Positions 37,848 to 60,796 of a stretch of 64,000 bases of DNA are shown here, piece by piece. Source of the stretch: an uncultured Gemmatimonadota bacterium. GTDB lineage: Bacteria; JAAXHH01. The notes under the pieces are model-generated. The model saw only the letters and a program-made list of their open reading frames with translations, was not told the DNA's origin and searched no databases. Each line of letters starts with the position of its first letter. Position 1 is the first letter of the stretch. Made by a program: the position numbers and the translations under genes. The DNA lies in the NCBI GenBank assembly GCA_951812955.1, contig OX638340.1, positions 352,001 to 416,000 on the forward strand. Reading direction: 5' to 3'.

Positions 37848-37896
37848 TAACCCCCGCGGATCAGCCTTCTCTGGCGTATATCCCCGCGGATCAGCC
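37837..37896. repeat. 30-bp tandem direct duplication of the tRNA-Arg 3' end plus flank (att-like scar)
   Basis: tctctggcgtataacccccgcggatcagcc (37837-37866) followed by tctctggcgtatatccccgcggatcagcc (37868-37896); the first copy includes the last ~11 nt of the tRNA. Confidence 0.7.
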
Positions 37897-38640
37897 CCGC
37901 CCTCCTGCCTGGTCATCATCGTCTTCTTCGCCAAGGTAAAGTTCGTTTTTCAGCAGATAACTTACCGTGGATGCATACCAACGGGTTTCCCTTGAAACCG
38001 CCGATGCACGTTTGGTGGGCACCTTCTGCTCATTGAGTTCATCCGCGATCTTGCGCAGGCTCCTGCCCTCGGCCCGCCAGTGCTTCACCTGCCTGATGAT
38101 CTCCTGCTCCCTTGAGTTGGGCACCAGCTGATTGCCGGACAGGTCGTATCCGTAAGGGATCGCGCCGTAAACGAACCGGTTGTTCTTTTTTTTCCGTATC
38201 CAGTTCTTCGTCCGCTCGGCGGGCAGGTCGCGGGCCAAACCGGCCAGCACGTTGAGCGTGCTCAGCACCACCTTCCCCTGTTCCTGATCGGTGCGGATGG
38301 ACATGCCATCGAGATCCAGCACGTGGCATATGATGCCTGCGCCGGACCAGGCCCCGAGGCAACCCGACATTTCGGCCGCTGACCTGAACAGCCGGTCGAG
38401 TCGCCAGATAACGATATGCTGGATGCCCTTCGATTCAACCGTGTTGGCCAGGTCCCGGCCACCCAGCCGATCCTCGAGCGGGATGAACGCCTCGACTCGG
38501 ATGTCGGGAATCACCAGCATGATGTCGAGGTCGTTTTCCGCGCAGTAGGACCTGAGCCGCTTCTCCTGGTCGGCCCTTCGAAAGGGATGCTTCCGGGTCT
38601 CCATCGGACCGACCCTGATATAGCATACCGCCTTTTTCAT
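37891..38640 (-). pseudogene. Truncated / probably inactive serine recombinase (resolvase-type N-terminus plus the start of a large-serine-recombinase 'recombinase' domain)
   Basis: 249-aa ORF. 'AVCYIRVGP' sits where 'Y-x-R-V-S' is expected (catalytic Ser replaced by Gly); conserved 'IVIWRLDRLFRS'; 'RFVYGAIPYGYDL...WYASTVSYLLKNELYLG' matches the start of the large-serine-recombinase recombinase domain, but the protein ends ~250 aa short, at the tRNA att-like repeat. Confidence 0.5.
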
Positions 38641-49682: not shown

Positions 49683-51131
49683 ATGATCCAGATCAAAGAA
49701 ATCGACCTCCGCATCCAGAACATGCGCACCCGCATGCCCTTCAAATTTGGCATATCGACCATGACGGCCGTGCCGCACCTGGTGCTTCGCATGGAACTGG
49801 AAGTGAACGGACGCACCGGCAGCGGATATTCCGCGGATCACCTGCCGCCGAAGTGGTTCACGAAGAACCCGGAGACGTCCCTCGAGGACGAAGTAGGGGA
49901 CATGATCTCCGTTATCCGCCACGCAAGCGACGCCGCGCTGGCCCTGGGACCCGCGCCCGATCTGTTCACCCTCTGGCTCGAACTCTACCAGGCCCAGAAG
50001 ATCTGGGGCAACGGGAGAGGTTTTGCGCCACTCCTGTGGGGCCTGGGAAACAGCCTGGTGGAAAGGGCCATGATCGAGGCTTTCTGCCGCATACAGGGCA
50101 CGGATTTCGGTAAAGCCGTGCGATCAAACGCCTTCGGCATTCGTTTCGATGCGTTCAATAGCCGTTTGAAGGGCCTGGCGCCCGCCGATGTGTTGCCCGG
50201 CTCCCCGATCACAGTCACCAACGTGCGCCATACCGTAGGGCTGGGAGACCCCCTGACCACGCAGGATATACCGCCGGAGGAGCTTTGCAACGACGGGCTG
50301 CCCCAGTCGCTGGACGAAGTCATCGACACCTATGGCATAACGTACTTCAAGATCAAGCTGTTCGGGGATGTAGCACGGGATATAGATCGCCTGAAGCAGA
50401 CGGCCAGTATCATCGACGGGCGATTGAACCAGTATGCGTTCACGCTGGACGGCAATGAAAACTACGGAGACATGGAAACGTTCCGGTCCTTCTGGGAATC
50501 ACTGCGGGCCGACCGTAATCTGGCAGGATTCCTCGGGCGGCTAATCTGCATCGAGCAGCCATTGCATCGCGATATAGCGCTGGATAAAGCACTCAGTGAG
50601 CATTTCGAGGCATGGCCTGACAGGCCACCATTCATTATCGACGAATCCGATGGGGACATCGGCGACCTGGAACGGGCCGTCGATATCGGTTACGCGGGTA
50701 CAAGTTACAAGAACTGTAAAGGAGTGTTCAAAGGGCTGTCCAACGCAGCTTATCTCGAGTACCTGGCAAGACAGCATCCGGACCGCCGGTACGTACTGAC
50801 GAGCGAAGACCTGTCCAACATCGGGCCGATCGCTCTTGCGCAGGACCTCGCAGTATTGGCCACATTAGGGGTTGACCACACAGAGCGGAACAGCCACCAT
50901 TACTTCAGAGGATTGACGACCTGGCCCCGCAAGATCCAGGAACAGATGCGATTATGTCATCCGGATCTGTTCAGTGTGCACGAAGAAGGTTTCACATGCA
51001 TGCACATCGAACAGGGTCGGATCAGTCTGGAGAGCGTAACGAAAAGTCCCTTCGGGGTAGGATTCGAATTCGACAGTTCAAAGCTTACCCCGCTGGATGA
51101 CTGGGAATATGCTACGCTGGATGTTGAATAA
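49683..51131 (+). CDS. Atypical long enolase-superfamily-like protein (MR subgroup KxK motif)
   Basis: 482-aa ORF; N-terminal 'IKEIDLRIQNMRTRMPFKFGIS...RMELEVNGRTGSGYS' capping-domain pattern, 'ITYFKIKLFGD' (K-x-K), 'LDGNENY', 'ICIEQP', 'IIDESDGD' in positions consistent with barrel-strand metal ligands. Not a standard family member; assigned by motif logic only. Confidence 0.4.
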   Translation: MIQIKEIDLRIQNMRTRMPFKFGISTMTAVPHLVLRMELEVNGRTGSGYSADHLPPKWFTKNPETSLEDEVGDMISVIRHASDAALALGPAPDLFTLWLELYQAQKIWGNGRGFAPLLWGLGNSLVERAMIEAFCRIQGTDFGKAVRSNAFGIRFDAFNSRLKGLAPADVLPGSPITVTNVRHTVGLGDPLTTQDIPPEELCNDGLPQSLDEVIDTYGITYFKIKLFGDVARDIDRLKQTASIIDGRLNQYAFTLDGNENYGDMETFRSFWESLRADRNLAGFLGRLICIEQPLHRDIALDKALSEHFEAWPDRPPFIIDESDGDIGDLERAVDIGYAGTSYKNCKGVFKGLSNAAYLEYLARQHPDRRYVLTSEDLSNIGPIALAQDLAVLATLGVDHTERNSHHYFRGLTTWPRKIQEQMRLCHPDLFSVHEEGFTCMHIEQGRISLESVTKSPFGVGFEFDSSKLTPLDDWEYATLDVE

Positions 51132-51926
51132 CAAGCGTGTGAGTGATGTTCGACATTTTGGAATTTTCATCGCGCGGAGAATTTACACCGAACCGGACGT
51201 ACAAATAGAAAGTAAATTGTACGCTTTCTGGAGCAAAACATACAGACAGAGTATTCATTGTACATTTGAAGCAGACCGATGTACAAATCATATAACAATT
51301 GTACAAATATACAGAAACGCTATGAAAGCACGCGAAATGAGCCTTCGGGCAGAGATCGATAAGAAAATCCGGCCGGTCACGATGAGCTCGCGGCATCAAT
51401 TAGTACGTTTCGGAACCGAAAATCGGGATTTCGAGGGTAGTTTCGACCCACCCCCTGACCCTCCAGGGACCGGATCAGAGCACATATAGATTTACATAAT
51501 ATCTATTATGCGAAGTAGGGATTTAGAGGGGTATACGAGGGATTTTGGGTCCGGAGACTATAAATCAGCTCAGAATAGACTTTCGAGAGGTAATGTACAA
51601 AAGAAAGATTATTTGTACGAACGCGGTAAATCTGAATACAAAAGAGGTAATGTTTGTACGAATGGGTGAATAGCATGTACAGAGATAGATAGAATAGTAC
51701 AGTGATACTAGTACAAATATAAAGATGGTTGTACAAGTTTGTTGAGATATCGTACTAAGAATAGATGTATTGTACGCAGGGTTATCTTAATAAAAATCTT
51801 AATTTGTATTTTTCGTGGCATGACAAATTAAAATCGAAAGATGTAAATGAAACAAACCTCGTTTCTTCAGAATGCAACCTCCCGTTCAATCCAGCATTCC
51901 AATCACCAATTTCCAGAGTAAATTCC
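51131..51926. repeat. ~800-bp low-GC island densely populated with TGTAC(A/G) motifs and longer imperfect direct repeats
   Basis: At least 14 copies of tgtaca/tgtacg/agtaca (e.g. cattgtacattt, cgatgtacaaatc, caattgtacaaatat, taatgtacaaaag, atttgtacgaacg, gtttgtacgaatg, catgtacagag, actagtacaaatat, ggttgtacaagtt, attgtacgcagg). 'agaggtaatgt' recurs ~55 bp apart. GC visibly ~35% against ~62% for the flanks. Confidence 0.75.
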
Positions 51927-52919
51927 TTGCGGTCACAACGACTGGTCAACACTGATTTCCGAAAGATAATACTGGAAGAGTATGAGATTCCTTCCGTGCC
52001 GGATGACAGTGTACTCGTACAAAACGAATATACTGCTGTCAGCGTAGGCACTGAAGTCTACAATTATATACATGGGTGTGAACCGGGCGGTGAGCCTCGA
52101 TTCCCCAGGAACACGGGCTATTGCAACGCAGGTGTAGCGCTGAAGGTTGGTAGGGACGTGCAGGGGATTGTACCGGGGGATCGTGTCGCCGGCCAGGGAA
52201 ACCACGCAAGTCATTCCATAATGTCGGGCTTGATCAGCAAGGTGCCGGCGAACGTATCGTCCAGGGCGGCGGCGTTCATGGTGATGTGTGCGACCTCATT
52301 GCATGGTCACCGCGTTGCCCGTCCCGAGCTGGGCGAGGCCGTCGTAGTGACCGGCATGGGCATCGTCGGTCAATTGGCTGCATCCTTTGCCCGGCTGAGC
52401 GGCGCTGTACCCGTCATTGGCGTGGATTTGGACGACTTTCGCCTTCAAAAAGCCCGTGAACGCGGGGTCGACGTGTGTATCAACCCGGAAAAGGAACCTG
52501 ATGTGGCTGAGGCGGTGCGCCGGTACTGTGCGGCAGACGGTGCTGACTTGGTCATCGAAGCGACCGGGGTACCCTCCGTGTATCCAATGGCACTGACCCT
52601 GCCGAGACTCGGCGGCCGTTTGCTCGCCCTCGGTTCGCCGCGCGGATCGGTGGAAGTGAGCTTTTTCGCCGAGGTCCATCTGCGCGAGGTCACGATCCTG
52701 GGCGCCCACCAGCCCAAAACACCTGATGAGGCTGACCTGTACTATCCCTGGAGCAAGCGAAGGGACCGCGACCTGGTCCTCCGGCTCATGGGTGAAGGAA
52801 AACTGCCGATCGAAGACCTGATTACTCACGAAGCAAATCCCGCCGATTGCCAGTCCGTTTACGACATGCTTGCGGATCGTCCCAGGGATGTGCTTGGGGT
52901 GGTGTTCAGGTGGGTGTGA
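51927..52919 (+). CDS. Zinc-dependent alcohol dehydrogenase (MDR family); 5' end uncertain
   Basis: ORF 51765..52919, but its first ~55 codons are low-GC junk. Recognisable MDR sequence starts near 'KIILEEYEIPSVPDDSVLVQNEYTAVSVGTEVYNY'; in-frame TTG at 51927 proposed as start. 'VTGMGIVGQLAA' Rossmann motif. Confidence 0.65.
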   Translation: MRSQRLVNTDFRKIILEEYEIPSVPDDSVLVQNEYTAVSVGTEVYNYIHGCEPGGEPRFPRNTGYCNAGVALKVGRDVQGIVPGDRVAGQGNHASHSIMSGLISKVPANVSSRAAAFMVMCATSLHGHRVARPELGEAVVVTGMGIVGQLAASFARLSGAVPVIGVDLDDFRLQKARERGVDVCINPEKEPDVAEAVRRYCAADGADLVIEATGVPSVYPMALTLPRLGGRLLALGSPRGSVEVSFFAEVHLREVTILGAHQPKTPDEADLYYPWSKRRDRDLVLRLMGEGKLPIEDLITHEANPADCQSVYDMLADRPRDVLGVVFRWV

Positions 52920-53065
52920 TCCCATACGATTTTCTCCTTGACTTGAACCCTGATTTTGCCGTTATGTTAACGGTCGGGTTTCACCATTGTACCGGTGAAT
53001 CCCGGTATGCGTAACCATTTGCAAGACAAGCATTTACCAATTGTATGAAATCGAGAGGAAGTTCC

Positions 53066-53308
53066 ATGACCGTATCCATCAAGCTCTTTGCCACCCTGCG
53101 GAAATTCCTGCCCGAAAACGCGGTCAACAAAACCGCGACGCTTGAACTCGGAGACCAGGCCACGGCGAGCGATATCATCAAGCAATTGGACATCCCCGAT
53201 GGCCACATACACCTGATTCTGATCGACGGCAAGCACTCGGCTGAAGACACCCCCCTTACCGACGGCGCGGTGGTCAGCTTTTTTCCACCGATTGCCGGCG
53301 GGGCGTAG
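53066..53308 (+). CDS. MoaD/ThiS-family ubiquitin-like sulfur-carrier-type protein ending ...IAGGA
   Basis: Start at ATG 53066 with GAGAGGAAG Shine-Dalgarno sequence; 'MTVSIKLFATLRKF...LELGDQATASDIIKQL...DGAVVSFFPPIAGGA' beta-grasp pattern with a Gly-Gly followed by one extra Ala before the stop. Confidence 0.55.
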   Translation: MTVSIKLFATLRKFLPENAVNKTATLELGDQATASDIIKQLDIPDGHIHLILIDGKHSAEDTPLTDGAVVSFFPPIAGGA

Positions 53309-53313
53309 GGTCG

Positions 53314-53607
53314 GTGTCCCACCATACCTTCTACGGATTCAAGCTGGAAGACGCCGTACGGGGACTGAAACGGGCGCTGCGGGACGAACAGATCCCCGTC
53401 GTATCGATCAGCGAGGATGAAAACAAGGTAGTCTTCGCAGTTCGGATCTCATCTGAAACAGGCAAAATCAGCCTGGTCGCCCATACCACCAATGCCCATC
53501 CCCTGGCCAGGCTCGGTGATATACCCGCGATCGAAGTCGCGGTCGACGATCATCTCCCCGATGTTAGGTCCGTGCTCACCATGGCATTTCTGAGAGGCGG
53601 AGGCTGA
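53314..53607 (+). CDS. Hypothetical small protein (97 aa) ending ...RGGG
   Basis: ORF 6 nt downstream of the MoaD-like gene; no family recognised by eye; C-terminus 'AFLRGGG'. Confidence 0.35.
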   Translation: MSHHTFYGFKLEDAVRGLKRALRDEQIPVVSISEDENKVVFAVRISSETGKISLVAHTTNAHPLARLGDIPAIEVAVDDHLPDVRSVLTMAFLRGGG

Positions 53608-53611
53608 CAAT

Positions 53612-55153
53612 ATGCGCGTCCGATTCCAGGCTCCCCTGGGTTTTTCGGTTTTACTGTGCATTTCCCTTCTCCTGGCAATAACGCTTCCGTTATCGGCCCA
53701 GGTCTCCGGAAACGGCAATCCGGCGGGGCGGATCGCCGTGGCCACGTCCGTCCTGAATCAGCTTTCCGATCTCGACGCCGGATTCCTGATCCCCAAAACC
53801 TTCGAGAAGGTCAGCGAGGCTTACGAACGGTATACCGGTGTAGTCCGGGAAGGCGAATCGATCCGCGATATCGAGCGGGCCTATTCGGAATTCGACGCCG
53901 CCGTGATCCAGGCGCGGGAACGACTGACGCGCGTGAACGAGATGTTGATGGTACCGCTGGGAAAACGGGCTGCGGCGCGGCGGGCGAATGCACCCGCGAT
54001 GGTTCCGGATGCCTACGAGGCGGCCGAAAAACGCCTCGAACGGGCTATTTCCAGGCTGGAAGACGACCGGGTCTCCGACGCCTTCTCGCTGGGACAGGAA
54101 GCGGCCGGTCTCTACGATGACGCCAGGTCGTCGGTGATCGAGATGTCGCTCATCGGGACGGCCAGGATCGGACTGTCGGAAGCAGAGAAGAAGGACTGGG
54201 ACCGGCTCGCTCCGGCCTCATTCGAACAAGCCCGCCGGTTGATGGACGAAGTGACCGGCGCCCTGGACCGCGGAGAACTCCTTACCGCCGCGCTGCGTAA
54301 CAAGGCCCAGGCCGCCGATTACGCGGTAAGACGGGCGATCGGGCTCGCGGCGAGGATCGACTCGCTAAGGCGCGATCCCGGGAACTGGGAGCGCATGTTG
54401 TTGTCGCGGCAGGATCTCGCACGGCAGGCGGCCGACGTGGCGGGGATCGCCGCCGATTTTCTGGCGGATGAACCACAGGCGATTATAAAGGAAAGCCTGC
54501 GTACGCTTTCCGCGAAACAGGACTCGCTCGTCCTCCTGCTCCAGCGGGCCGATGCTAACGCCGCAGCATCCAGCGCGGAAGCCGATTCCCTGCGTCAGGC
54601 GATCGAGCAGCAGCAGATCCGCCTGTCGTCCATGGTGGAGGAGTTCCAGCTGGACCTTCAGCGAAGAAAGGAAGCGCTGGACCGGGAACGCCGCGAACTC
54701 AGGGAATACCTGTACGAAAAGACCCAGCTGGATGCGGCTGCGCAGGCCAGGGAGCGTTTTGCGGACAGCGAATCGATCGTGACGCGTGAGTCCGGCCGTC
54801 TCATCCTGCGGCTTATAGGGATTTCGTTCCGGGCTGGAAGAACGGAACTACCCGCGGACGCCCACGGACTGCTCGCGAGGCTCGGGGAATTTCTCGCGCT
54901 ATATCCCCAGACCCGTGTTGCCGTGGAGGGACATACCGATGCCACGGGAAAAGAAGACAAGAACATCGAACTTTCCAAAGCGCGCGCCGAAGCGGTCATG
55001 GGGTCTCTTGCGGACCAGTCCGGTGTCTCGACCGAACGCATGACGTCCTCGGGACTTGGCAGTGCTCAGCCCATCGCCAGCAACAATACGCGTAGTGGCA
55101 GGGAGCAGAACCGAAGGATCGACGTAGTGCTGACCTTCAGTAGAGATCCCTAA
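53612..55153 (+). CDS. OmpA-family outer-membrane/periplasmic protein with coiled-coil middle region
   Basis: Signal peptide 'MRVRFQAPLGFSVLLCISLLLAITLPLSAQ'; C-terminal OmpA-like domain ('VAVEGHTDATGKEDKNIELSKARAEAV...NRRIDVVL'). Confidence 0.8.
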   Translation: MRVRFQAPLGFSVLLCISLLLAITLPLSAQVSGNGNPAGRIAVATSVLNQLSDLDAGFLIPKTFEKVSEAYERYTGVVREGESIRDIERAYSEFDAAVIQARERLTRVNEMLMVPLGKRAAARRANAPAMVPDAYEAAEKRLERAISRLEDDRVSDAFSLGQEAAGLYDDARSSVIEMSLIGTARIGLSEAEKKDWDRLAPASFEQARRLMDEVTGALDRGELLTAALRNKAQAADYAVRRAIGLAARIDSLRRDPGNWERMLLSRQDLARQAADVAGIAADFLADEPQAIIKESLRTLSAKQDSLVLLLQRADANAAASSAEADSLRQAIEQQQIRLSSMVEEFQLDLQRRKEALDRERRELREYLYEKTQLDAAAQARERFADSESIVTRESGRLILRLIGISFRAGRTELPADAHGLLARLGEFLALYPQTRVAVEGHTDATGKEDKNIELSKARAEAVMGSLADQSGVSTERMTSSGLGSAQPIASNNTRSGREQNRRIDVVLTFSRDP

Positions 55154-55177
55154 CACACCTGCGAGGAGAACGCGAAA

Positions 55178-55843
55178 TTGAGCAAAGAAACAGGCAACGA
55201 ACCCTTCGAAGAGATGAGAAGGCTGCTTTTCTCATCGGTAATCGCCGATGCGCTGGATGCCTGCGGATATCGTGACCAGATCCTGCGACACGACATCCGG
55301 CCCCTGTATCCCGATGCGGTCGTGGTGGGCCGGGCGCTGACCGTACTTTCGGTCGACGTATACGAGATTCCCGAAGAGCCCTACAAGCTCGAGTTGGAAG
55401 CCGTGGATGCCCTGAAGCCGGGCGATGTGCTCGTCGCGCAGACCAACGGTACGACGCGAAGCAGTCTCTGGGGCGAGCTGCTTTCAACGGCCGCGGAAGT
55501 CCGCGGTGCGCGTGGCGCCGTGATCGATGGCTTTACGCGGGATACACAGGCCATTTGCGCCATGGGGTTCCCGGTTTTCGTCCGCGGCATCGCGCCATAC
55601 GATTCGAAGGGACGAAGCGACGTGATCGCATACGATGTGCCCATTGAGTGCGGCGGCGTCAAGGTGTGTCCGGGAGATCTCGTCTTCGGAGATTACGACG
55701 GGGTTGTGGCGATTCCCCGGGCCGCCGAAGAGCAGGTATTGAAAGCGGCGTTCGAAAAGGCTGCCGGAGAAAAAGAAGTGAAGGAAGCGCTGGAAAACGG
55801 CATGTCCGCCACCGCTGCCTTTCAAAAATACGGCATTCTCTGA
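55178..55843 (+). CDS. RraA-family protein (RraA / 4-hydroxy-4-methyl-2-oxoglutarate aldolase-like)
   Basis: 221-aa ORF; 'SSVIADALDACGYRDQ', 'GDVLVAQTNGTTRSSLWGELLSTAA', 'GAVIDGFTRD' RraA-fold signatures. Confidence 0.75.
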   Translation: MSKETGNEPFEEMRRLLFSSVIADALDACGYRDQILRHDIRPLYPDAVVVGRALTVLSVDVYEIPEEPYKLELEAVDALKPGDVLVAQTNGTTRSSLWGELLSTAAEVRGARGAVIDGFTRDTQAICAMGFPVFVRGIAPYDSKGRSDVIAYDVPIECGGVKVCPGDLVFGDYDGVVAIPRAAEEQVLKAAFEKAAGEKEVKEALENGMSATAAFQKYGIL

Positions 55844-56748
55844 TGAAACCCCTGGTCGAATGCGTGCCCAATTTCAGCGAAGGGCGCGATTCCGGGATTG
55901 TCGAGGCTATCGCAGCCAGTATTGCGGCCTCCGATGGGGTCCACCTTGCCGGTATGGAAATGGACGCGGACCACAACCGCTCCGTGATCACCTTCATGGG
56001 CTCGCCCGAGGACGCGGCGGCGGCCGCCTATGAAGCCTGCAAGACAGCACGTTCGTTGATCGACCTGAGGCGTCACCGGGGCGTTCATCCACGCATCGGC
56101 GCTACGGACGTCCTGCCATTTGTCCCCCTTTCCGCCTGTTCCCTTTCCGAATGTATATCCCTCGCGCGGATCGTTGGTCGGCGGATCGGACAAACCCTCG
56201 ATATCCCGGTGTTCTTCTACGGCGACGCATCCACGGATTCGCGGCGCGGTACGCTTCACGCGATCCGCCGGGGAGGTTTCGAACGGCTGGTCCGGGAGAT
56301 GGGAACGGATCCGGATCTCTCACCCGACGTGGGACCCGATGTGGTCCATGTTTCCGCCGGCGCCACGGCGGTAGGCGTCCGCGATATTCTTGTCGCCTTC
56401 AACGTAAACCTGGATACCGATGACGTGCACGCCGCCCAGGCGATCGCGCGGGAGATCCGGGAGAAGAACGACGGTCTGCCCGGCGTCCGGGCACTGGGAC
56501 TCTTGCTGCCTTTTAAGGGCCGCGCACAGGTATCCATGAACCTGACCGACTATCGCAAGACGGATATGGCCCAGGCTTTCCGCGTGGTCGCTCGCCTCGC
56601 GGAAGCCCGGGGCGTAGGCGTCCTTGAGAGCGAGCTGATCGGACTCGCGCCCCGCGCGGCCATGGGCGGCGCGGAACCGGATGAATTACGTATTCGGCCC
56701 CTCGAGCCGTCCCGGTATCTTGAATACCACACGAGCCAATTCGACTGA
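55843..56748 (+). CDS. Glutamate formimidoyltransferase (FtcD N-terminal domain-like)
   Basis: Start at ATG 55843 ('MKPLVECVPNFSEGRD', canonical formiminotransferase N-terminus), overlapping the rraA-like stop (TGATG). The upstream Arg-rich part of the raw ORF is rejected. Confidence 0.8.
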   Translation: MKPLVECVPNFSEGRDSGIVEAIAASIAASDGVHLAGMEMDADHNRSVITFMGSPEDAAAAAYEACKTARSLIDLRRHRGVHPRIGATDVLPFVPLSACSLSECISLARIVGRRIGQTLDIPVFFYGDASTDSRRGTLHAIRRGGFERLVREMGTDPDLSPDVGPDVVHVSAGATAVGVRDILVAFNVNLDTDDVHAAQAIAREIREKNDGLPGVRALGLLLPFKGRAQVSMNLTDYRKTDMAQAFRVVARLAEARGVGVLESELIGLAPRAAMGGAEPDELRIRPLEPSRYLEYHTSQFD

Positions 56749-56874
56749 CGGCCTTCCTCATTCCAGGTACCTTGACGGCGTACCGACGTCTCTAAATTAC
56801 TTGACTACCTCCCTCCCCCTTCATATCATGTTGACTAAATTAGTAAACTAACGCCTGATGGCGAGGGAGGACGC

Positions 56875-57315
56875 ATGCGGGTATCGGCCAAGGCGGAGTA
56901 TGCTTGCAGGGCCGTGCTGGAGTTGACAAGGTACCATGAGAAGGCGGAAGTCATCCATATCGGCGACATTGCCGTCCGCCAGTCCATACCGGAGAAGTAC
57001 CTCGTTCAGATCCTGCTGCAGTTGCAGCGCGCCGGGCTGGTCAAGAGCAAACGCGGGGCGACAGGCGGATATGCGCTCGCCCGCGCACCGGGAGAGATCT
57101 CGCTGGGTGATGTGATCCGGGCGATGGACGGCGCGCTGATCGCCGTCGAGAGCCTGTCCGACGATACGAATGTGTCCGATCAAATGAGCGGCCAGCATGT
57201 ATTGAAGAACGTCTGGATGGATGTGCAGGATAGACTCGGCGAAATCATGGACGGGATCACTTTCGATGAAATCTCGCGACAGGCGCAAAAAAGCCTTTCC
57301 ATGTACTACATATAA
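56875..57315 (+). CDS. Rrf2-family transcriptional regulator (CymR/IscR-like)
   Basis: 146-aa ORF; 'MRVSAKAEYACRAVLEL' and 'KSKRGATGGYALARAP' Rrf2 helix-turn-helix signature; sits directly upstream of a cysteine-synthase gene. Confidence 0.85.
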   Translation: MRVSAKAEYACRAVLELTRYHEKAEVIHIGDIAVRQSIPEKYLVQILLQLQRAGLVKSKRGATGGYALARAPGEISLGDVIRAMDGALIAVESLSDDTNVSDQMSGQHVLKNVWMDVQDRLGEIMDGITFDEISRQAQKSLSMYYI

Positions 57316-57325
57316 GGGATAGAAC

Positions 57326-58273
57326 TTGGCGTCCGGAACTGGAATAATCGACAGCGCACTCGATCTGATCGGGCATACCCCGCTCATTCGCCTTGGACGA
57401 ATAAATGAAAGTCCAGGCGTCCAAGTACTCGGCAAGCTCGAATCGGAAAACCCGGGCGGCAGCGTGAAGGACCGCGTTGGCCTGAGCATGATCCTGGACG
57501 CCGAACGAAGAGGCCTGCTCAGCCCGGGCGGTACGATCGTGGAGCCTACGAGCGGAAACACCGGGCTCGGCCTGAGCATGGTGGCCGCGGTGAAGGGCTA
57601 CAAGGTCATACTTGTCATGCCGGACAACATGAGTTCGGAGCGGCGGGTATTGCTGACCTCCTACGGTGCTGAACTGGTCCTGACGCCGGGTATGCTCGGC
57701 ATGGCCGGCGCTGTGCAGAAGGCGGAGGAGATTCTTCGGGAACATCCCGGTTATTTCATGCCCCAGCAGTTCAAGAATCCCGCCAACGTGGAGATACACC
57801 GCAAGACCACCGCGGAGGAGATCTGGGAAGCGACCGGCGGGAAAATCGACGCCTTTGTGGCAGCCGTGGGCACGGGGGGTACGTTGACGGGCGTGGGACA
57901 GTTTCTGAAGGAAAAGGACGAACGAATCCGCGTCATCGCGGTGGAACCATCATTGTCCCCGGTGATATCGGGCAAGCCAGTGGAGAGCCTGGTGCATGCC
58001 ATCCAGGGGATCGGCGCCGGGTTCATACCGGACATCCTGGATACGTCGATTATCGATGAAGTGATACTGATCGACGACGAGGACGCGTACCAGTCGGCCC
58101 GCCGTCTGGGCATGGAGGAAGGGCTCCTGGTGGGCATTTCGGCCGGCGCCAACGTATGCGCCAGCCTGAAGGTGGCAGAGAATATGGGAGAAGGGACGAT
58201 CGTGACCATCCTGTGCGATACCGGCGAAAGATACCTGAGCATCCGGGAATACTTTGAAGGACAGGGAGATTAA
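57326..58273 (+). CDS. cysM: Cysteine synthase family PLP enzyme (CysK/CysM-like, fold type II)
   Basis: 315-aa ORF; 'NPGGSVKDRVGLSMI' PLP-lysine motif and 'TSGNTGLGL'; Gly-rich 'GTGGT' PLP-phosphate loop. Confidence 0.85.
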   Translation: MASGTGIIDSALDLIGHTPLIRLGRINESPGVQVLGKLESENPGGSVKDRVGLSMILDAERRGLLSPGGTIVEPTSGNTGLGLSMVAAVKGYKVILVMPDNMSSERRVLLTSYGAELVLTPGMLGMAGAVQKAEEILREHPGYFMPQQFKNPANVEIHRKTTAEEIWEATGGKIDAFVAAVGTGGTLTGVGQFLKEKDERIRVIAVEPSLSPVISGKPVESLVHAIQGIGAGFIPDILDTSIIDEVILIDDEDAYQSARRLGMEEGLLVGISAGANVCASLKVAENMGEGTIVTILCDTGERYLSIREYFEGQGD

Positions 58274-58289
58274 CAGGAGGAACCGTTTG

Positions 58290-58661
58290 ATGTCCGTTAC
58301 CGTACGAATTCCAACCCCGCTGCGCAAGTTGACCGGCAACCAGTCCGTAATCGAAATCGACGGCGATACCGTCGAATCGCTGATCGGGAACATGGAAGCA
58401 TCCTACCCCGGAATCAAGGATCGCATCTGCGACGAGTCCGGGAAAGTGCGGCGGTTCATCAACATCTACATCAACGAAGAAGATATCCGGTTTCTGGATG
58501 GCACCGGTACCACGGTGAAAACAGGAGACCGGATCTCCATCGTCCCCGCCATCGCCGGCGGTCTGGGCGACCTGGGCGGTCCAGGTGGTCAAGGCGGTCC
58601 CGTCAGTTCCGCCAATCCTGACGGTCCCGTCTGTCCTGTCGGTTCGCGGGACATTGGCTGA
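58290..58661 (+). CDS. cysO: CysO-like ubiquitin-fold sulfur carrier with 32-aa C-terminal extension beyond the Gly-Gly
   Basis: ATG 58290 with CAGGAGGA Shine-Dalgarno sequence. 'MSVTVRIPTPLRKLTGNQSVIEIDGDTVESLIGNMEASYPGIKDRI...RRFINIYINEEDIRF...ISIVPAIAGG' closely resembles (from memory) mycobacterial CysO; continues 'LGDLGGPGGQGGPVSSANPDGPVCPVGSRDIG' and its stop overlaps the thrB ATG (TGATG). Confidence 0.75.
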   Translation: MSVTVRIPTPLRKLTGNQSVIEIDGDTVESLIGNMEASYPGIKDRICDESGKVRRFINIYINEEDIRFLDGTGTTVKTGDRISIVPAIAGGLGDLGGPGGQGGPVSSANPDGPVCPVGSRDIG

Positions 58662-59566
58662 TGTCCTCCGTGCGGGTGCGCGTACCCGCGACGACCGGCA
58701 ACCTGGGTTCCGGCTACGACTGCGCCGGCATGGCCCTCGGCCTGTATAACACCATCGAGTTCGCCGAAACGGAATCCGGACTGGACGTGACCATGGAGGG
58801 CGAAGGCGCCGACGCGGTACCGCTCGATGAAGGCAACCTGTGCATCGTCTCCGCACGGGCCGTCTTCGATGCCGCGGACTGGCGACCCCCCGGTCTCCTG
58901 GCACGCATGCGCCACGCGATTCCTGTGTCACGGGGCCTGGGCAGCAGCGGAGTCGCCATCGTGGCGGGCGCCGTTGCGGCCAATGAACTCGCGGGAAGGC
59001 CGCTGGACAAGTCCGAACTCCTACGCATCTGTTCCGAACTGGAAGGCCATCCGGACAACGTCGTACCTTCCCTGCTCGGTGGCCTCTCCGTGAGCGGCGA
59101 GCGGTCGGGAGCGATCGTATACCAGACCTTCAGGGTTCCCGACGACATCAAGGCCATCGTGGCCATTCCCGAATTTACGCTCGACACGAAGGTTGCCCGC
59201 GGCGTCCTGCCTGAATCCGTATCCATGGAGGACGCGGTCTACAATCTTTGTAGCGTGGGACTGCTCATCGGCGGCATGATTACGGGTAATTACGCCTTGC
59301 TCAGGGAGGGCATGGCCGATCGCCTGCACCAGCCCTACCGGCAGCACCTGGTTCCTGGCCTGGCGGAGGTCACCGGAGACGCCCTGGATGCCGGTGCCCA
59401 CGGCGCAGCCCTCAGCGGCGCCGGACCGACGGCCATCGCCCTGGCGACGGAAGATCACGAGGGGATCGGGCAAGCCATGGTCGAAGCCTTCGCCCGGCAC
59501 GGCGTTTCCGGACAGTTCCGGATCCTCCCGATAGACAACGACGGATGCCAGGTGCTGCAGGACTGA
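58661..59566 (+). CDS. thrB: Homoserine kinase (GHMP kinase)
   Basis: 301-aa ORF; 'PATTGNLGSGYDCAGMAL' and 'PVSRGLGSSGVAIVAGAVAA' GHMP motifs. Confidence 0.85.
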   Translation: MSSVRVRVPATTGNLGSGYDCAGMALGLYNTIEFAETESGLDVTMEGEGADAVPLDEGNLCIVSARAVFDAADWRPPGLLARMRHAIPVSRGLGSSGVAIVAGAVAANELAGRPLDKSELLRICSELEGHPDNVVPSLLGGLSVSGERSGAIVYQTFRVPDDIKAIVAIPEFTLDTKVARGVLPESVSMEDAVYNLCSVGLLIGGMITGNYALLREGMADRLHQPYRQHLVPGLAEVTGDALDAGAHGAALSGAGPTAIALATEDHEGIGQAMVEAFARHGVSGQFRILPIDNDGCQVLQD

Positions 59567-59611
59567 ATCCGCGCGAACCAGGCACACAACAACCTTACAG
59601 GTACCAACGTC

Positions 59612-60796
59612 ATGGGCGCACTCAAGGACATTCGCGTCATCGACCTCACCCGGGTGCTCGCGGGTCCATTCACGACCATGACCCTGGGCGACCTGGGCGC
59701 CGATATCATCAAGGTCGAACCCTTCGGCGGGGACGAGGCGCGGGGATTCGGTCCCTTCAAAGAGGGCGTAAGCGGCTACTTCGAGAATGTCAACCGGGGC
59801 AAGCAGAGCATCGCCATCGATCTGAAGCATCCTGACGGACGCTACCTGCTCCTCGAATTGATCGCGAAGTCGGACGTGCTGGTGGAGAACTTCAGGCCGG
59901 GCGTGATGAAGAAACTCGGACTGGACTACGAGACTTTGCAGGAGCGGTTCCCGGGGCTGATCTACGCGGCCTGTTCCGGATTCGGACAGACCGGACCCTA
60001 CGCCCGGCGCGGGGCCTACGACATGATCATCCAGGGTATGGGCGGTATCGTCAGCATAACGGGCGAACCTGACCGCCCTCCTGTACGGGTGGGCGTATCC
60101 ATCGGGGATATCGCCGCCGCGCTATATTCCTGTATCGGCATTCTCACGGCACTATTCACCAGGACGCAGACGGGCAGGGGACAGATGGTGGACATCGGCA
60201 TGCTGGACTGCCAGGTCGCTCTCCTCGAGAACGCCATCGCCCGTTACGACATGACGGGCACCGTTCCGGAACCGCTCGGGGCCAGGCATCCATCCATCAC
60301 GCCCTTTCAGGCTGTCGAGACCCGGGACGGATGGATCATGATCGCGGCGGGGAACAACGTGCTCTGGCGCCGGCTGTGCGAAGTCGTTGAACGTGAGGAC
60401 CTGGCCGACGACGCACGCTTCAGGGACAACAACCTGCGCACCGAAAACAACGCCGACCTGCACACGATCCTGAGCGATGTATTCCGAGAAAGTACGACGG
60501 AAGACTGGCTGAGACGATTGGATGCAGCTGAGATACCTTGCGGGCCCATCCAGAATGTCCGGCAGGTCGTGGAAGATCCCCAGGTACTTGCCCGCGACAT
60601 GATCGTGAATCTCCTGCACCCTATCGCCGGCTCCCTGCGTGTAGCCGGTTCTCCAATAAAACTCTCAGAAACCCCGCCGGAAGTCACCCGGCACGCCCCC
60701 GCCCTGGGTGAACATACCGATCAGGTGCTGAAGTCGCTGCTCCAGGCGACCGGGGACGACCTGGCGCGCTGGCGCGAATCGGGTGCAATTCGTTAG
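59612..60796 (+). CDS. Family III CoA-transferase (CaiB/BaiF-like)
   Basis: 394-aa ORF; 'LKDIRVIDLTRVLAGPFTTMTLGDLGADIIKVEP' canonical N-terminus; catalytic Asp region 'GTGRGQMVDIGMLD'. Confidence 0.85.
   Translation: MGALKDIRVIDLTRVLAGPFTTMTLGDLGADIIKVEPFGGDEARGFGPFKEGVSGYFENVNRGKQSIAIDLKHPDGRYLLLELIAKSDVLVENFRPGVMKKLGLDYETLQERFPGLIYAACSGFGQTGPYARRGAYDMIIQGMGGIVSITGEPDRPPVRVGVSIGDIAAALYSCIGILTALFTRTQTGRGQMVDIGMLDCQVALLENAIARYDMTGTVPEPLGARHPSITPFQAVETRDGWIMIAAGNNVLWRRLCEVVEREDLADDARFRDNNLRTENNADLHTILSDVFRESTTEDWLRRLDAAEIPCGPIQNVRQVVEDPQVLARDMIVNLLHPIAGSLRVAGSPIKLSETPPEVTRHAPALGEHTDQVLKSLLQATGDDLARWRESGAIR

What the first reader, a model, noticed from the sequence alone, without database searches (positions are those of the whole stretch)
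53045..53607. Orphan pair of small proteins ending in GGA and GGG (MoaD/ThiS-like plus unknown)
A MoaD/ThiS-type beta-grasp protein ends '...PPIAGGA' (one residue past the diglycine). It is followed 6 nt later by a 97-aa protein of unrecognised family ending '...RGGG'. There is no adjacent E1-like adenylyltransferase, JAMM protease or molybdopterin/thiamine genes. Together with the extended CysO 5 kb away, this genome seems to use several C-terminally masked ubiquitin-like carriers, which implies a dedicated processing protease.
Basis: partly seen in the sequence, partly recalled or inferred. Interest (0 to 1): 0.5.

Follow-up and report, generated by a model that had tools for sequence, protein, structure and literature searches.

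The report
MoaD-like carrier with RGGG-tailed partner
Two tiny, tightly coupled genes encode a MoaD-type sulfur-carrier (ubiquitin-like) protein and a partner of a different fold that always ends in Arg-Gly-Gly-Gly; they look like the split form of an uncharacterised Thermus fusion protein of known structure (PDB 1V8C), so the pair is real and unusual but its chemistry is untested.

Summary
Both ORFs are real, conserved and under purifying selection. ORF1 (true start 53066, 80 aa) is a MoaD/ThiS beta-grasp protein ending FPPIAGG+A. The extra residue is specific to this clade and varies (A/V/K/E/L); distant orthologs stop at GG. ORF2 (53314-53607, 97 aa) is not beta-grasp. Its AlphaFold model (pLDDT 88.6) has a TBP-like beta-alpha-beta4-alpha fold. 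The family is tiny, with no Pfam or NCBIfam hit, and ends invariably in FLR-x-GG, uncapped.

Every related locus with enough sequence shows ORF1-ORF2 followed by an OmpA-like gene, while both flanks vary. No E1, JAMM, MoaE or ThiG gene lies in the 64 kb.

Best reading: a split MoaD~DUF1952 sulfur-carrier module served in trans. Function is untested.

The parts
52938..53038 (+). Conserved upstream region: promoter-like TTGACT (52938-52943) ... TATGTT (52963-52968, 19-nt spacer), followed by a conserved leader block (about 53009-53038).
   Evidence: This stretch is conserved in most of 13 aligned loci even where the upstream genes differ (A5). The simple promoter scan did not call it because the spacer exceeds 18 nt. 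No Rfam family matches. The promoter function is inferred.
53053..53059 (+). Shine-Dalgarno sequence GAGAGGA of ORF1.
   Evidence: Nearly invariant in A5 and 6 nt upstream of ATG 53066.
53066..53308 (+). ORF1: 80-aa MoaD/ThiS-family beta-grasp carrier ending FFPPIAGG-A.
53314..53607 (+). ORF2: 97-aa protein with a TBP-like fold and an invariant free C-terminus FLRGGG. It is the DUF1952-like partner.
53599..53603 (+). GGAGG Shine-Dalgarno sequence for the OmpA-like gene, embedded in the Gly-Gly codons of ORF2.
   Evidence: Read directly from the sequence. In distant loci the Gly codons differ and contain no GGAGG, yet GGG is kept, so the motif is selected at the protein level.
53612..55153 (+). 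Third gene of the unit: 513-aa secreted OmpA-family protein with a signal peptide, a long helical region and a C-terminal OmpA peptidoglycan-binding domain.
   Evidence: Pfam OmpA 2.2e-18 at residues 406-501. It follows ORF2 in nearly every locus with enough sequence; the partial downstream ORFs in L012 and L036-L038 were not matched to it or not compared. Its role in the module is not shown.
58290..58661 (+). Second carrier in the neighbourhood: a CysO/SAMP1-like protein with a 32-aa Gly/Pro-rich extension after AIAGG. It lies between a CysM-like PLP enzyme gene and thrB.
   Evidence: Pfam ThiS 3.7e-15; NCBIfam SAMP1 56.9 bits. The extension is present but varies in length in relatives. It is context for the 'masked carrier' idea, not part of the operon.

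Best explanation
ORF1 and ORF2 form a two-protein module that corresponds to a single Thermus polypeptide, the MoaD~DUF1952 protein of PDB 1V8C.

ORF1 is a MoaD-type beta-grasp sulfur carrier. An E1-type adenylyltransferase encoded elsewhere in the genome would adenylate its Gly-Gly terminus and convert it to a thiocarboxylate. In this clade a peptidase would first have to remove the single capping residue; it could be the same one that must uncap the neighbouring CysO-like carrier.

ORF2 is ORF1's dedicated partner. It has a small TBP-like fold, and its own free Arg-Gly-Gly-Gly end is essential to the function. It would play the role that MoaE or ThiG play for MoaD and ThiS, namely docking the carrier and using its sulfur. 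Its tail may be a second activated terminus.

The module most likely descends from the MoaD genes linked to aldehyde:ferredoxin oxidoreductase (AOR), which are thought to serve pterin (W/Mo) cofactor sulfuration. In this lineage it has lost the AOR neighbour and is co-transcribed with an OmpA-like envelope gene.

Shown: the folds, the conserved termini, the gene coupling, the conserved three-gene order, the Thermus fusion and its AOR context.
Inferred: homology of ORF2 to DUF1952, activation by an E1, uncapping, sulfur transfer and the substrate.
For: 1. ORF1 is a MoaD-like beta-grasp protein with the canonical FPP[IV]AGG end.
2. 1V8C was recovered from loci L039-L045 and is 167/168 identical to the PDB chain. 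It reads MoaD domain ...DLFPPVAGG(87)-G-DUF1952 ...IAFAASRGGG-stop.
4. In a free MAFFT alignment the Thermus domain is 25% identical to ORF2. It shares R20, L22, P63, L64, G68, R94, G96 and G97; all but G68 (nearly invariant) are invariant in the ORF2 family.
5. The RGGG end is kept across that divergence, with synonymous Gly codons, including in loci where it cannot be serving as a ribosome-binding site.
6. ORF2 never occurs without ORF1 directly upstream wherever upstream sequence exists. Spacers are 5-30 nt across more than 30 loci, while both flanks of the unit vary.
7. The Thermus gene lies directly downstream of an AOR gene. ORF1's nearest relative outside the three-gene unit (54% identity) is also next to an AOR. 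This is the AOR-linked MoaD group of Iyer et al. 2006 (PMC1779556).
8. In the distant loci ORF1 is as conserved as core enzymes (63-72%), whereas ORF2 (33-43%) and the OmpA-like protein (about 36%) evolve faster.
Against: - Sequence-only support for ORF2-DUF1952 homology is weak. The Pfam DUF1952 model does not hit the ORF2 members tested. hhalign gives E 0.019 over 34 columns. The ORF2-family HMM scores the Thermus domain 0.0 bits, a score reached by 129 of 10,000 plain shuffles and by 606 of 10,000 shuffles that keep RGGG fixed.
- No E1, JAMM, MoaE, AOR or other cofactor gene lies in the 64 kb or in the annotated flanks of the related loci examined, so no enzyme is tied to the module here.
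- The OmpA-like partner is periplasmic and has no evident link to cytoplasmic sulfur transfer.
- In the model, ORF2's last helix runs to residue 94. That leaves only three tail residues, which is short for insertion into an E1 active site.
Confidence: 0.5

Rival explanations
1. Two-carrier system. ORF2 (and the DUF1952 domain) is itself an E1 substrate. It would be a non-beta-grasp protein whose free Gly-Gly end is adenylated and thiocarboxylated, or conjugated, alongside ORF1. For example, the pair could deliver the two sulfurs of a dithiolene.
For: - The terminal GG of ORF2 is invariant and never capped, whereas ORF1 tolerates 0-2 extra residues.
- RGGG is shared with the Thermus domain despite loss of detectable sequence similarity.
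- Model confidence drops at the tail (mean pLDDT 66 for residues 91-97), which fits a flexible end.
- From my own knowledge: E1-type enzymes do act on non-ubiquitin folds (MccB on MccA; Cap2 on CD-NTase C-termini).
Against: - No E1 is linked to the pair.
- The tail beyond the last helix is only three residues.
- No thiocarboxylated or conjugated TBP-fold protein is known.
- ORF2 has no Cys and no other catalytic signature.
Confidence: 0.2
2. Ordinary explanation. ORF1 is simply this organism's housekeeping MoaD, sitting away from moaE. ORF2 is an unrelated small protein. The gene order persists only because the genomes are related.
For: - The best structural matches of ORF1 are true MoaD proteins (1fm0_D, 6jc0, 1vjk).
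- MoaD is rarely adjacent to MoeB (PMC1779556).
- Much of the wider neighbourhood (RraA-FTCD-Rrf2-CysM-CysO-ThrB) is also syntenic.
Against: - ORF1 scores 24 bits against the MoaD equivalog model TIGR01682, whose cut-off is 66.
- The three genes stay contiguous while insertions of 0.15-5.4 kb occur on the upstream side and further genes are inserted on the downstream side.
- ORF1 and ORF2 are 5-30 nt apart in all lineages, including ones with only about 30-37% ORF2 identity.
- The Thermus protein fuses both modules in one chain.
Confidence: 0.12
3. Protein-tagging system. ORF1, and perhaps ORF2, is conjugated to lysines of target proteins, as archaeal SAMPs and Thermus TtuB are. The E1 and the JAMM isopeptidase would be encoded elsewhere.
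For: - The best NCBIfam hit for ORF1 is SAMP1, though below the cut-off.
- NCBI names the Thermus fusion 'ubiquitin-like small modifier protein 1'.
- Capped termini imply a JAMM-type peptidase.
- From my own knowledge: TtuB is conjugated to proteins in Thermus.
Against: - No E1, E2 or JAB gene is nearby.
- No PADLOC defence-system model hits ORF1 or ORF2.
- The database names are automatic labels.
- Nothing identifies a target.
Confidence: 0.1
4. Envelope-related, non-enzymatic role. The two small proteins regulate or chaperone the co-transcribed OmpA-like protein, and the Gly-rich ends are structural.
For: - The OmpA-like gene follows ORF2 in nearly every locus with enough sequence, and its ribosome-binding site lies inside ORF2's last codons.
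Against: - ORF1 and ORF2 have no signal peptides, while the OmpA-like protein is secreted (read from the sequences).
- The Thermus counterpart has no OmpA neighbour; it sits after AOR.
- The canonical FPPxAGG end of ORF1 is invariant.
Confidence: 0.08

Closest known systems
Thermus thermophilus 'MoaD related protein', PDB 1V8C (BAD69974.1): ThiS/MoaD domain plus Pfam DUF1952
   Different: In Thermus it is one polypeptide, so the first diglycine is internal. Here there are two genes 5 nt apart and ORF1 carries a one-residue cap. The DUF1952 model does not detect the ORF2 members tested, and sequence statistics are weak. The Thermus gene follows an AOR gene and has no OmpA neighbour. The function of 1V8C is itself unknown; no paper in the searched library mentions DUF1952.
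AOR-linked MoaD genes (Iyer, Burroughs and Aravind 2006, PMC1779556)
   Same: ORF1's nearest relative outside the three-gene unit (P0061, 54% identity) and the Thermus fusion both lie next to an aldehyde:ferredoxin oxidoreductase gene. That paper proposes these MoaD genes make molybdopterin for the tungsten cofactor.
   Different: No AOR, MoeB, MoaE or tungstate-transporter gene is in the window or in the annotated flanks of related loci. The AOR-linked locus L005 has a second beta-grasp gene rather than an ORF2-like gene.
MoaD-MoaE and ThiS-ThiG pairs and their fusions
   Same: A sulfur-carrier gene is adjacent or fused to the gene of the protein that uses its thiocarboxylate. Fusion implies functional partnership, and a JAB peptidase may free the diglycine (PMC1779556).
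   Different: ORF2 has neither the MoaE nor the ThiG fold or family. It carries its own terminal Gly-Gly, which MoaE and ThiG do not (the last point is from my own knowledge).
Capped sulfur carriers processed by JAMM peptidases (HcyS-Ala/HcyD of Wolinella, QbsE/QbsD; CysO-Mec+). This comparison rests on my own knowledge and was not checked in the library.
   Same: One or a few residues follow the diglycine and must be removed before adenylation. ORF1 (GG+A) and the CysO-like protein (GG+32 aa) fit this pattern.
   Different: In those systems the JAMM and E1 genes lie in the same cluster. Here neither is within 64 kb.
E1-type activation of non-ubiquitin folds (MccB-MccA; CBASS Cap2-CD-NTase). 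This comparison rests on my own knowledge.
   Same: These are precedents for a flexible C-terminal tail on a non-beta-grasp protein being adenylated by an E1-like enzyme. That is what the two-carrier reading of ORF2 requires.
   Different: No E1-like gene is linked to ORF2. No PADLOC hit was found. The reading is purely conceptual.

Membership tests
MoaD/ThiS family (Pfam PF02597), tested for ORF1 | The profile HMM scores above the curated threshold. | tested here: met
   41.9 bits against a cut-off of 22.5; also Ub-Mut7C at 36.6 against 23.
MoaD/ThiS family (Pfam PF02597), tested for ORF1 | Beta-grasp fold. | tested here: met
MoaD/ThiS family (Pfam PF02597), tested for ORF1 | Free C-terminal Gly-Gly. 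| tested here: inconclusive
   AGG is invariant, but in this clade one residue (A/V/K/E/L) follows it. Distant orthologs end at GG. Whether the residue is removed is unknown.
MoaD/ThiS family (Pfam PF02597), tested for ORF1 | Adenylation and thiocarboxylation by an E1-like enzyme. | not testable with these tools
   No ThiF-family gene is in the window. The rest of the genome is not available.
Canonical molybdopterin synthase small subunit MoaD (NCBIfam TIGR01682 / NF008347 equivalogs), tested for ORF1 | The equivalog model scores above its cut-off, and the gene is linked to moaE. | tested here: not met
   24.0 bits against 66.15, and 20.0 against 94. No MoaE was found in the window.
DUF1952 (Pfam PF09189; C-terminal domain of 1V8C), tested for ORF2 | The profile HMM matches. 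| tested here: not met
   No DUF1952 hit for ORF2 at E <= 0.1, nor for two distant members at E <= 1. hhalign gives E 0.019 over 34 columns. In the shuffle test, 606 of 10,000 RGGG-fixed shuffles reach the real score.
DUF1952 (Pfam PF09189; C-terminal domain of 1V8C), tested for ORF2 | TBP-like beta-alpha-beta4-alpha fold that superposes on the 1V8C C-terminal domain. | tested here: met
DUF1952 (Pfam PF09189; C-terminal domain of 1V8C), tested for ORF2 | It directly follows a MoaD-like module that ends FPPxAGG. | tested here: met
   In Thermus it is fused after residue 87. Here it is a separate gene 5 nt downstream, as in every locus with upstream sequence.
DUF1952 (Pfam PF09189; C-terminal domain of 1V8C), tested for ORF2 | C-terminus ...RGGG. 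| tested here: met
   Thermus ends IAFAASRGGG. The ORF2 family ends FLRGGG, with one member ending FLRTGG.
E2/UBC-like, considered for ORF2 because of the invariant HPL motif | UBC fold with an HPN motif and a catalytic Cys. | tested here: not met
Bacterial ubiquitin-like conjugation or defence operons (Bil, Bub, CBASS-Cap2 type) | E1, E2 and JAB genes clustered with the Ubl gene. | tested here: not met
   ORF1 and ORF2 have no PADLOC hits. No ThiF, UBC or JAB domains are in the window or the annotated flanks.

The most novel reading that the evidence does not exclude
ORF2, and with it DUF1952, may define a second, structurally unrelated class of carrier activated at a C-terminal glycine. It would be a TBP-fold protein whose free Arg-Gly-Gly-Gly end is adenylated and thiocarboxylated (or conjugated) by an E1, and it would always work in tandem with a MoaD-type beta-grasp carrier. 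That would be a 'two-headed' sulfur relay conserved from Thermus to Gemmatimonadota-like bacteria.
Probability: 0.2. Interest if true: 0.75.

Novelty: new variant of a known kind. Interest (0 to 1): 0.5.

Why it matters
Sulfur-carrier and ubiquitin-like systems are defined by a beta-grasp protein with a free Gly-Gly end. Here a protein of a different fold keeps an invariant RGGG end. It is always fused or coupled to a MoaD-like carrier, in two bacterial lineages too distant for sequence similarity to survive.

This does three things. It links a 2004 structural-genomics orphan (1V8C/DUF1952) to a previously unannotated family. It supplies a natural split/fused pair, which argues that the two modules work together. 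It yields a simple test: is the second Gly-Gly end activated?

If the answer is yes, the set of E1 substrates in sulfur metabolism widens. If no, DUF1952-like proteins are a new kind of MoaD partner, possibly in tungsten or molybdenum cofactor synthesis.

Tried and rejected
- **Riboswitch or other RNA element upstream of ORF1.** No Rfam match at E <= 1 in 51000-59700.
- **Defence-system membership.** ORF1 and ORF2 have no PADLOC hits. The ZorB/MotB hits of the third gene only reflect its OmpA domain.
- **Is RGGG conserved only because it encodes the downstream ribosome-binding site?** Rejected. The Gly codons vary synonymously, and distant loci with 34-136 nt gaps keep GGG.
- **E2-like reading of the HPL motif.** Rejected: no Cys and no UBC-fold hits.
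- **Zn-ADH upstream of ORF1 as a remnant of the Thermus ADH-AOR-MoaD order.** Rejected. The two ADHs share only 28% identity over 142 aa, and the ADH is absent from distant loci.
- **E1 or JAMM hidden in the variable island upstream of ORF1 in relatives.** Only a HicB-like gene, weak trypsin-like and nucleoside deoxyribosyltransferase-like hits, and unknowns were found.
- **Literature.** Searches for '1V8C', 'MoaD-related protein' and 'DUF1952' gave no functional study. The 'HcyS' search returned only homocysteine papers.
- **Sequence-only proof of ORF2-DUF1952 homology.** Not achieved.

Full report
**1. The observation**

The window encodes, on the + strand, an ORF ending ...FFPPIAGGA (stop at 53306-53308). 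Five bases later, a 97-codon ORF (GTG 53314 to 53607) ends ...MAFLRGGG. Both are real genes. Across 17 close orthologous loci the variable sites fall mainly on third codon positions: 18/6/66 for ORF1 and 40/27/83 for ORF2. Synonymous codon differences outnumber non-synonymous ones, 2939/984 and 3263/2200. The long antisense ORF 52981-53325 carries internal stops in 16 of 16 orthologs.

The start of ORF1 needs correcting. All homologs are 79-83 aa. A nearly invariant GAGAGGA sequence lies 6 nt before ATG 53066. ORF1 is therefore 53066-53308, 80 aa.

**2. ORF1**

In the family alignment A77, G78 and G79 are invariant, but what follows GG is not. The more distant orthologs have nothing after GG. 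Members of and near the window's clade have A, V, K, E, L or two residues. The cap is thus a recent and sequence-unconstrained feature.

**3. ORF2**

No Pfam, NCBIfam or PADLOC model matches ORF2. The family is very small. The word-indexed search found 32 proteins. An exhaustive profile search of 1.84 billion representatives found 10 clusters, all standalone proteins of 97-104 aa.

Invariant positions are R20 A21 L22, H62 P63 L64, F92 L93 R94 and G96 G97. One member ends FLRTGG, so the strictly conserved feature is a terminal, uncapped Gly-Gly.

In the close clade the Gly codons contain the GGAGG ribosome-binding site of the next gene. In distant loci the Gly codons differ (GGC GGC GGG, GGT GGC GGA, GGG GGT GGG) and the next gene lies 34-136 nt away. 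The motif is therefore selected at the protein level.

**4. The link to a solved structure**

A peptide search showed that residues 69-87 of 1V8C read STPLSPGATLDLFPPVAGG. A degenerate DNA pattern for that peptide recovered the gene from seven metagenome contigs. The translation is 167/168 identical to the PDB chain.

The protein consists of a MoaD domain ending FPPVAGG, one Gly, and then an 81-residue domain that Pfam calls DUF1952 (7e-42). That domain ends ...ERIAFAASRGGG-stop. The Thermus protein is thus a fusion of an ORF1-like module and an ORF2-like module, and its second module carries the same RGGG terminus.

In an unconstrained MAFFT alignment the Thermus domain is 25% identical to ORF2. 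It shares R20, L22, P63, L64, G68, R94, G96 and G97, all of them invariant or nearly invariant in the ORF2 family.

There is a caveat. By sequence statistics alone the relationship is not established.
- The DUF1952 model does not hit the ORF2 members tested.
- hhalign gives E 0.019 over 34 columns.
- An ORF2-family HMM scores the Thermus domain 0.0 bits. That score is reached by 1.3% of plain shuffles and 6% of shuffles that keep RGGG fixed.

The case rests on four concordant lines: fold, terminal motif, shared conserved positions, and the identical partner in the identical position.

**5. Genomic context**

Every locus that holds an ORF2 homolog and has upstream sequence shows an ORF1 homolog 5-30 nt upstream. 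Nearly every locus with enough downstream sequence shows a homolog of the 513-aa OmpA-family protein next; in L012 the partial downstream ORF gave no match, and those in L036-L038 were not compared. That protein has a signal peptide, a long helical region and a C-terminal OmpA domain.

The flanks vary.
- Between the Zn-ADH-like gene and ORF1 there are 0.15 to 5.4 kb of accessory genes, including a HicB-like gene and others with weak or no Pfam hits.
- Distant loci have entirely different upstream genes.
- Extra genes lie between the OmpA-like gene and the RraA-like gene in L003, L030 and L035.

A stretch of about 125 nt upstream of ORF1, with a TTGACT...TATGTT promoter-like pair, is conserved in most aligned loci whatever lies further upstream. 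The three genes therefore behave as one unit with its own control region.

In the distant loci ORF1 is 63-72% identical, ORF2 33-43% and the OmpA-like protein about 36%.

Record titles name the hosts as Gemmatimonadota or Candidatus Latescibacterota MAGs.

No ThiF/E1, JAB/JAMM, MoaE, ThiG, AOR or other cofactor gene was found among the scanned ORFs of the 64 kb. None appears in the annotated flanks of related loci.

**6. Ancestry**

The Thermus fusion gene lies immediately downstream of an aldehyde:ferredoxin oxidoreductase (AFOR_N/AFOR_C) gene, which itself follows a Zn-ADH gene. ORF1's closest relative outside the three-gene unit (P0061, 54% identity) also lies next to an AOR gene, together with a second beta-grasp gene and an ABC permease gene.

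This is the 'AOR-linked MoaD' group that Iyer, Burroughs and Aravind described. They proposed that it makes molybdopterin for the tungsten cofactor, and they list Thermus among the organisms (PMC1779556). [quoted passage not shown]

The Zn-ADH upstream of ORF1 is not an ortholog of the Thermus ADH: 28% identity over 142 aa.

**7. How it most likely works**

Shown: two folds, two conserved Gly-Gly ends, tight gene coupling, a fused counterpart and an AOR-linked ancestry.

Inferred: ORF1 is adenylated and thiocarboxylated by an E1 encoded elsewhere, after removal of its one-residue cap in this clade. ORF2 is its obligatory partner, in the way MoaE or ThiG partner their carriers. ORF2's free RGGG end takes part in the reaction, either by docking or as a second activated terminus.

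The neighbouring CysO-like carrier is capped in every relative. In the window's clade the cap has the form L + 4-60 Gly/Pro-rich residues, usually ending [RQG]D-x-G. Distant relatives have GGSR or GGK. A C-terminal trimming peptidase is therefore probably present in these genomes and could also serve ORF1.

I put 0.5 on this module-level reading. I put about 0.25 on the specific claim that the chemistry is pterin-cofactor sulfuration, because nothing in this genome fragment ties the module to AOR or to molybdenum-cofactor genes.

**8. Rivals**

- A true two-carrier system, with ORF2 itself an E1 substrate (0.2).
- Housekeeping MoaD plus an unrelated neighbour (0.12). This is contradicted by the equivalog scores, the stability of the unit and the Thermus fusion.
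- SAMP/TtuB-like protein tagging (0.1).
- An envelope-related, non-enzymatic role with the OmpA-like protein (0.08).

The role of the OmpA-like gene is unexplained. One distant homolog of its N-terminal region lies convergent to a molybdenum-cofactor operon, but that is a single case.

**9. Verdict**

The finding is a new variant of a known kind. It is the split form of the uncharacterised MoaD~DUF1952 architecture, detached from AOR and joined to an OmpA-like gene. Its second component is a previously unannotated family. Interest is moderate (0.5). The conserved RGGG end on a non-ubiquitin fold is the surprising part and is directly testable.

Noticed in passing
window 58563-58658 (tail of the CysO-like gene 58290-58661); the same gene in L016-L035: The CysO/SAMP1-like carrier between the CysM-like gene and thrB has a Gly/Pro-rich extension after VPAIAGG. 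Its length varies greatly between close relatives, from about 5 to 60 residues. In most it starts with Leu and ends in a conserved [RQG]-D-x-G. Distant relatives have only GGSR or GGK. Every version is capped, which implies C-terminal processing.
   Followed up: partly
window 53593-53611: The codons for R-G-G-G of ORF2 (AGA GGC GGA GGC) contain the GGAGG ribosome-binding site of the OmpA-like gene, 8 nt before its ATG. In the close clade these codons are nearly fixed at the nucleotide level as well.
   Followed up: yes
L016 5365-9750, L034 4306-9750, L018, L024 and L032; the equivalent window position is 52920-53065: The gap between the Zn-ADH-like gene and ORF1 is a variable insertion site holding 0.15-5.4 kb. 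It contains a HicB-like antitoxin gene, ORFs with weak trypsin-like peptidase and nucleoside 2-deoxyribosyltransferase-like hits, and several ORFs without Pfam hits. It looks like an accessory or defence islet.
   Followed up: partly
window 51097-51760: A stretch between the enolase-superfamily gene and the Zn-ADH-like gene has unusually low third-position GC (0.42-0.45, against about 0.7-0.8 elsewhere). Its ORFs have no family hit. It may be a remnant of foreign DNA.
   Followed up: no
JGI 3300048101 contig holding P0128 (no DNA held): A distant homolog (28% identity) of the N-terminal region of the OmpA-like protein lies convergent to a molybdenum-cofactor operon. That operon encodes a MoaE-ThiF-rhodanese fusion, a MobA-ThiS(MoaD) fusion, MoaC, MoaA and MoeA. 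This is a single case and may be coincidence.
   Followed up: no
L042 547-3457 and L041 1992-4424 (Thermus): In Thermus the gene order is Zn-ADH, then AOR, then MoaD~DUF1952. A Zn-ADH-like gene also precedes ORF1 in the window, but the two ADHs are not orthologous.
   Followed up: yes
L005 2852-3157: In the AOR-linked marine locus a second Ub-Mut7C-type beta-grasp protein (101 aa) precedes the ORF1-like gene. It lacks the terminal diglycine and ends in a charged tail (...FPPEAAFNMYVALYFREDLVGDQALSKKK).
   Followed up: no
window 53009-53038: A leader block (consensus CATAACCATCTGTAAAACAAGCATTTACC) between the promoter-like site and the ORF1 ribosome-binding site is conserved in most of the aligned loci. 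It has no Rfam match. It may be an operator or an RNA element.
   Followed up: partly
window 37891-38640 (- strand): A serine recombinase gene (Resolvase plus Recombinase domains) lies between a radical-SAM methylthiotransferase-like gene and the rimP-nusA-infB cluster.
   Followed up: no
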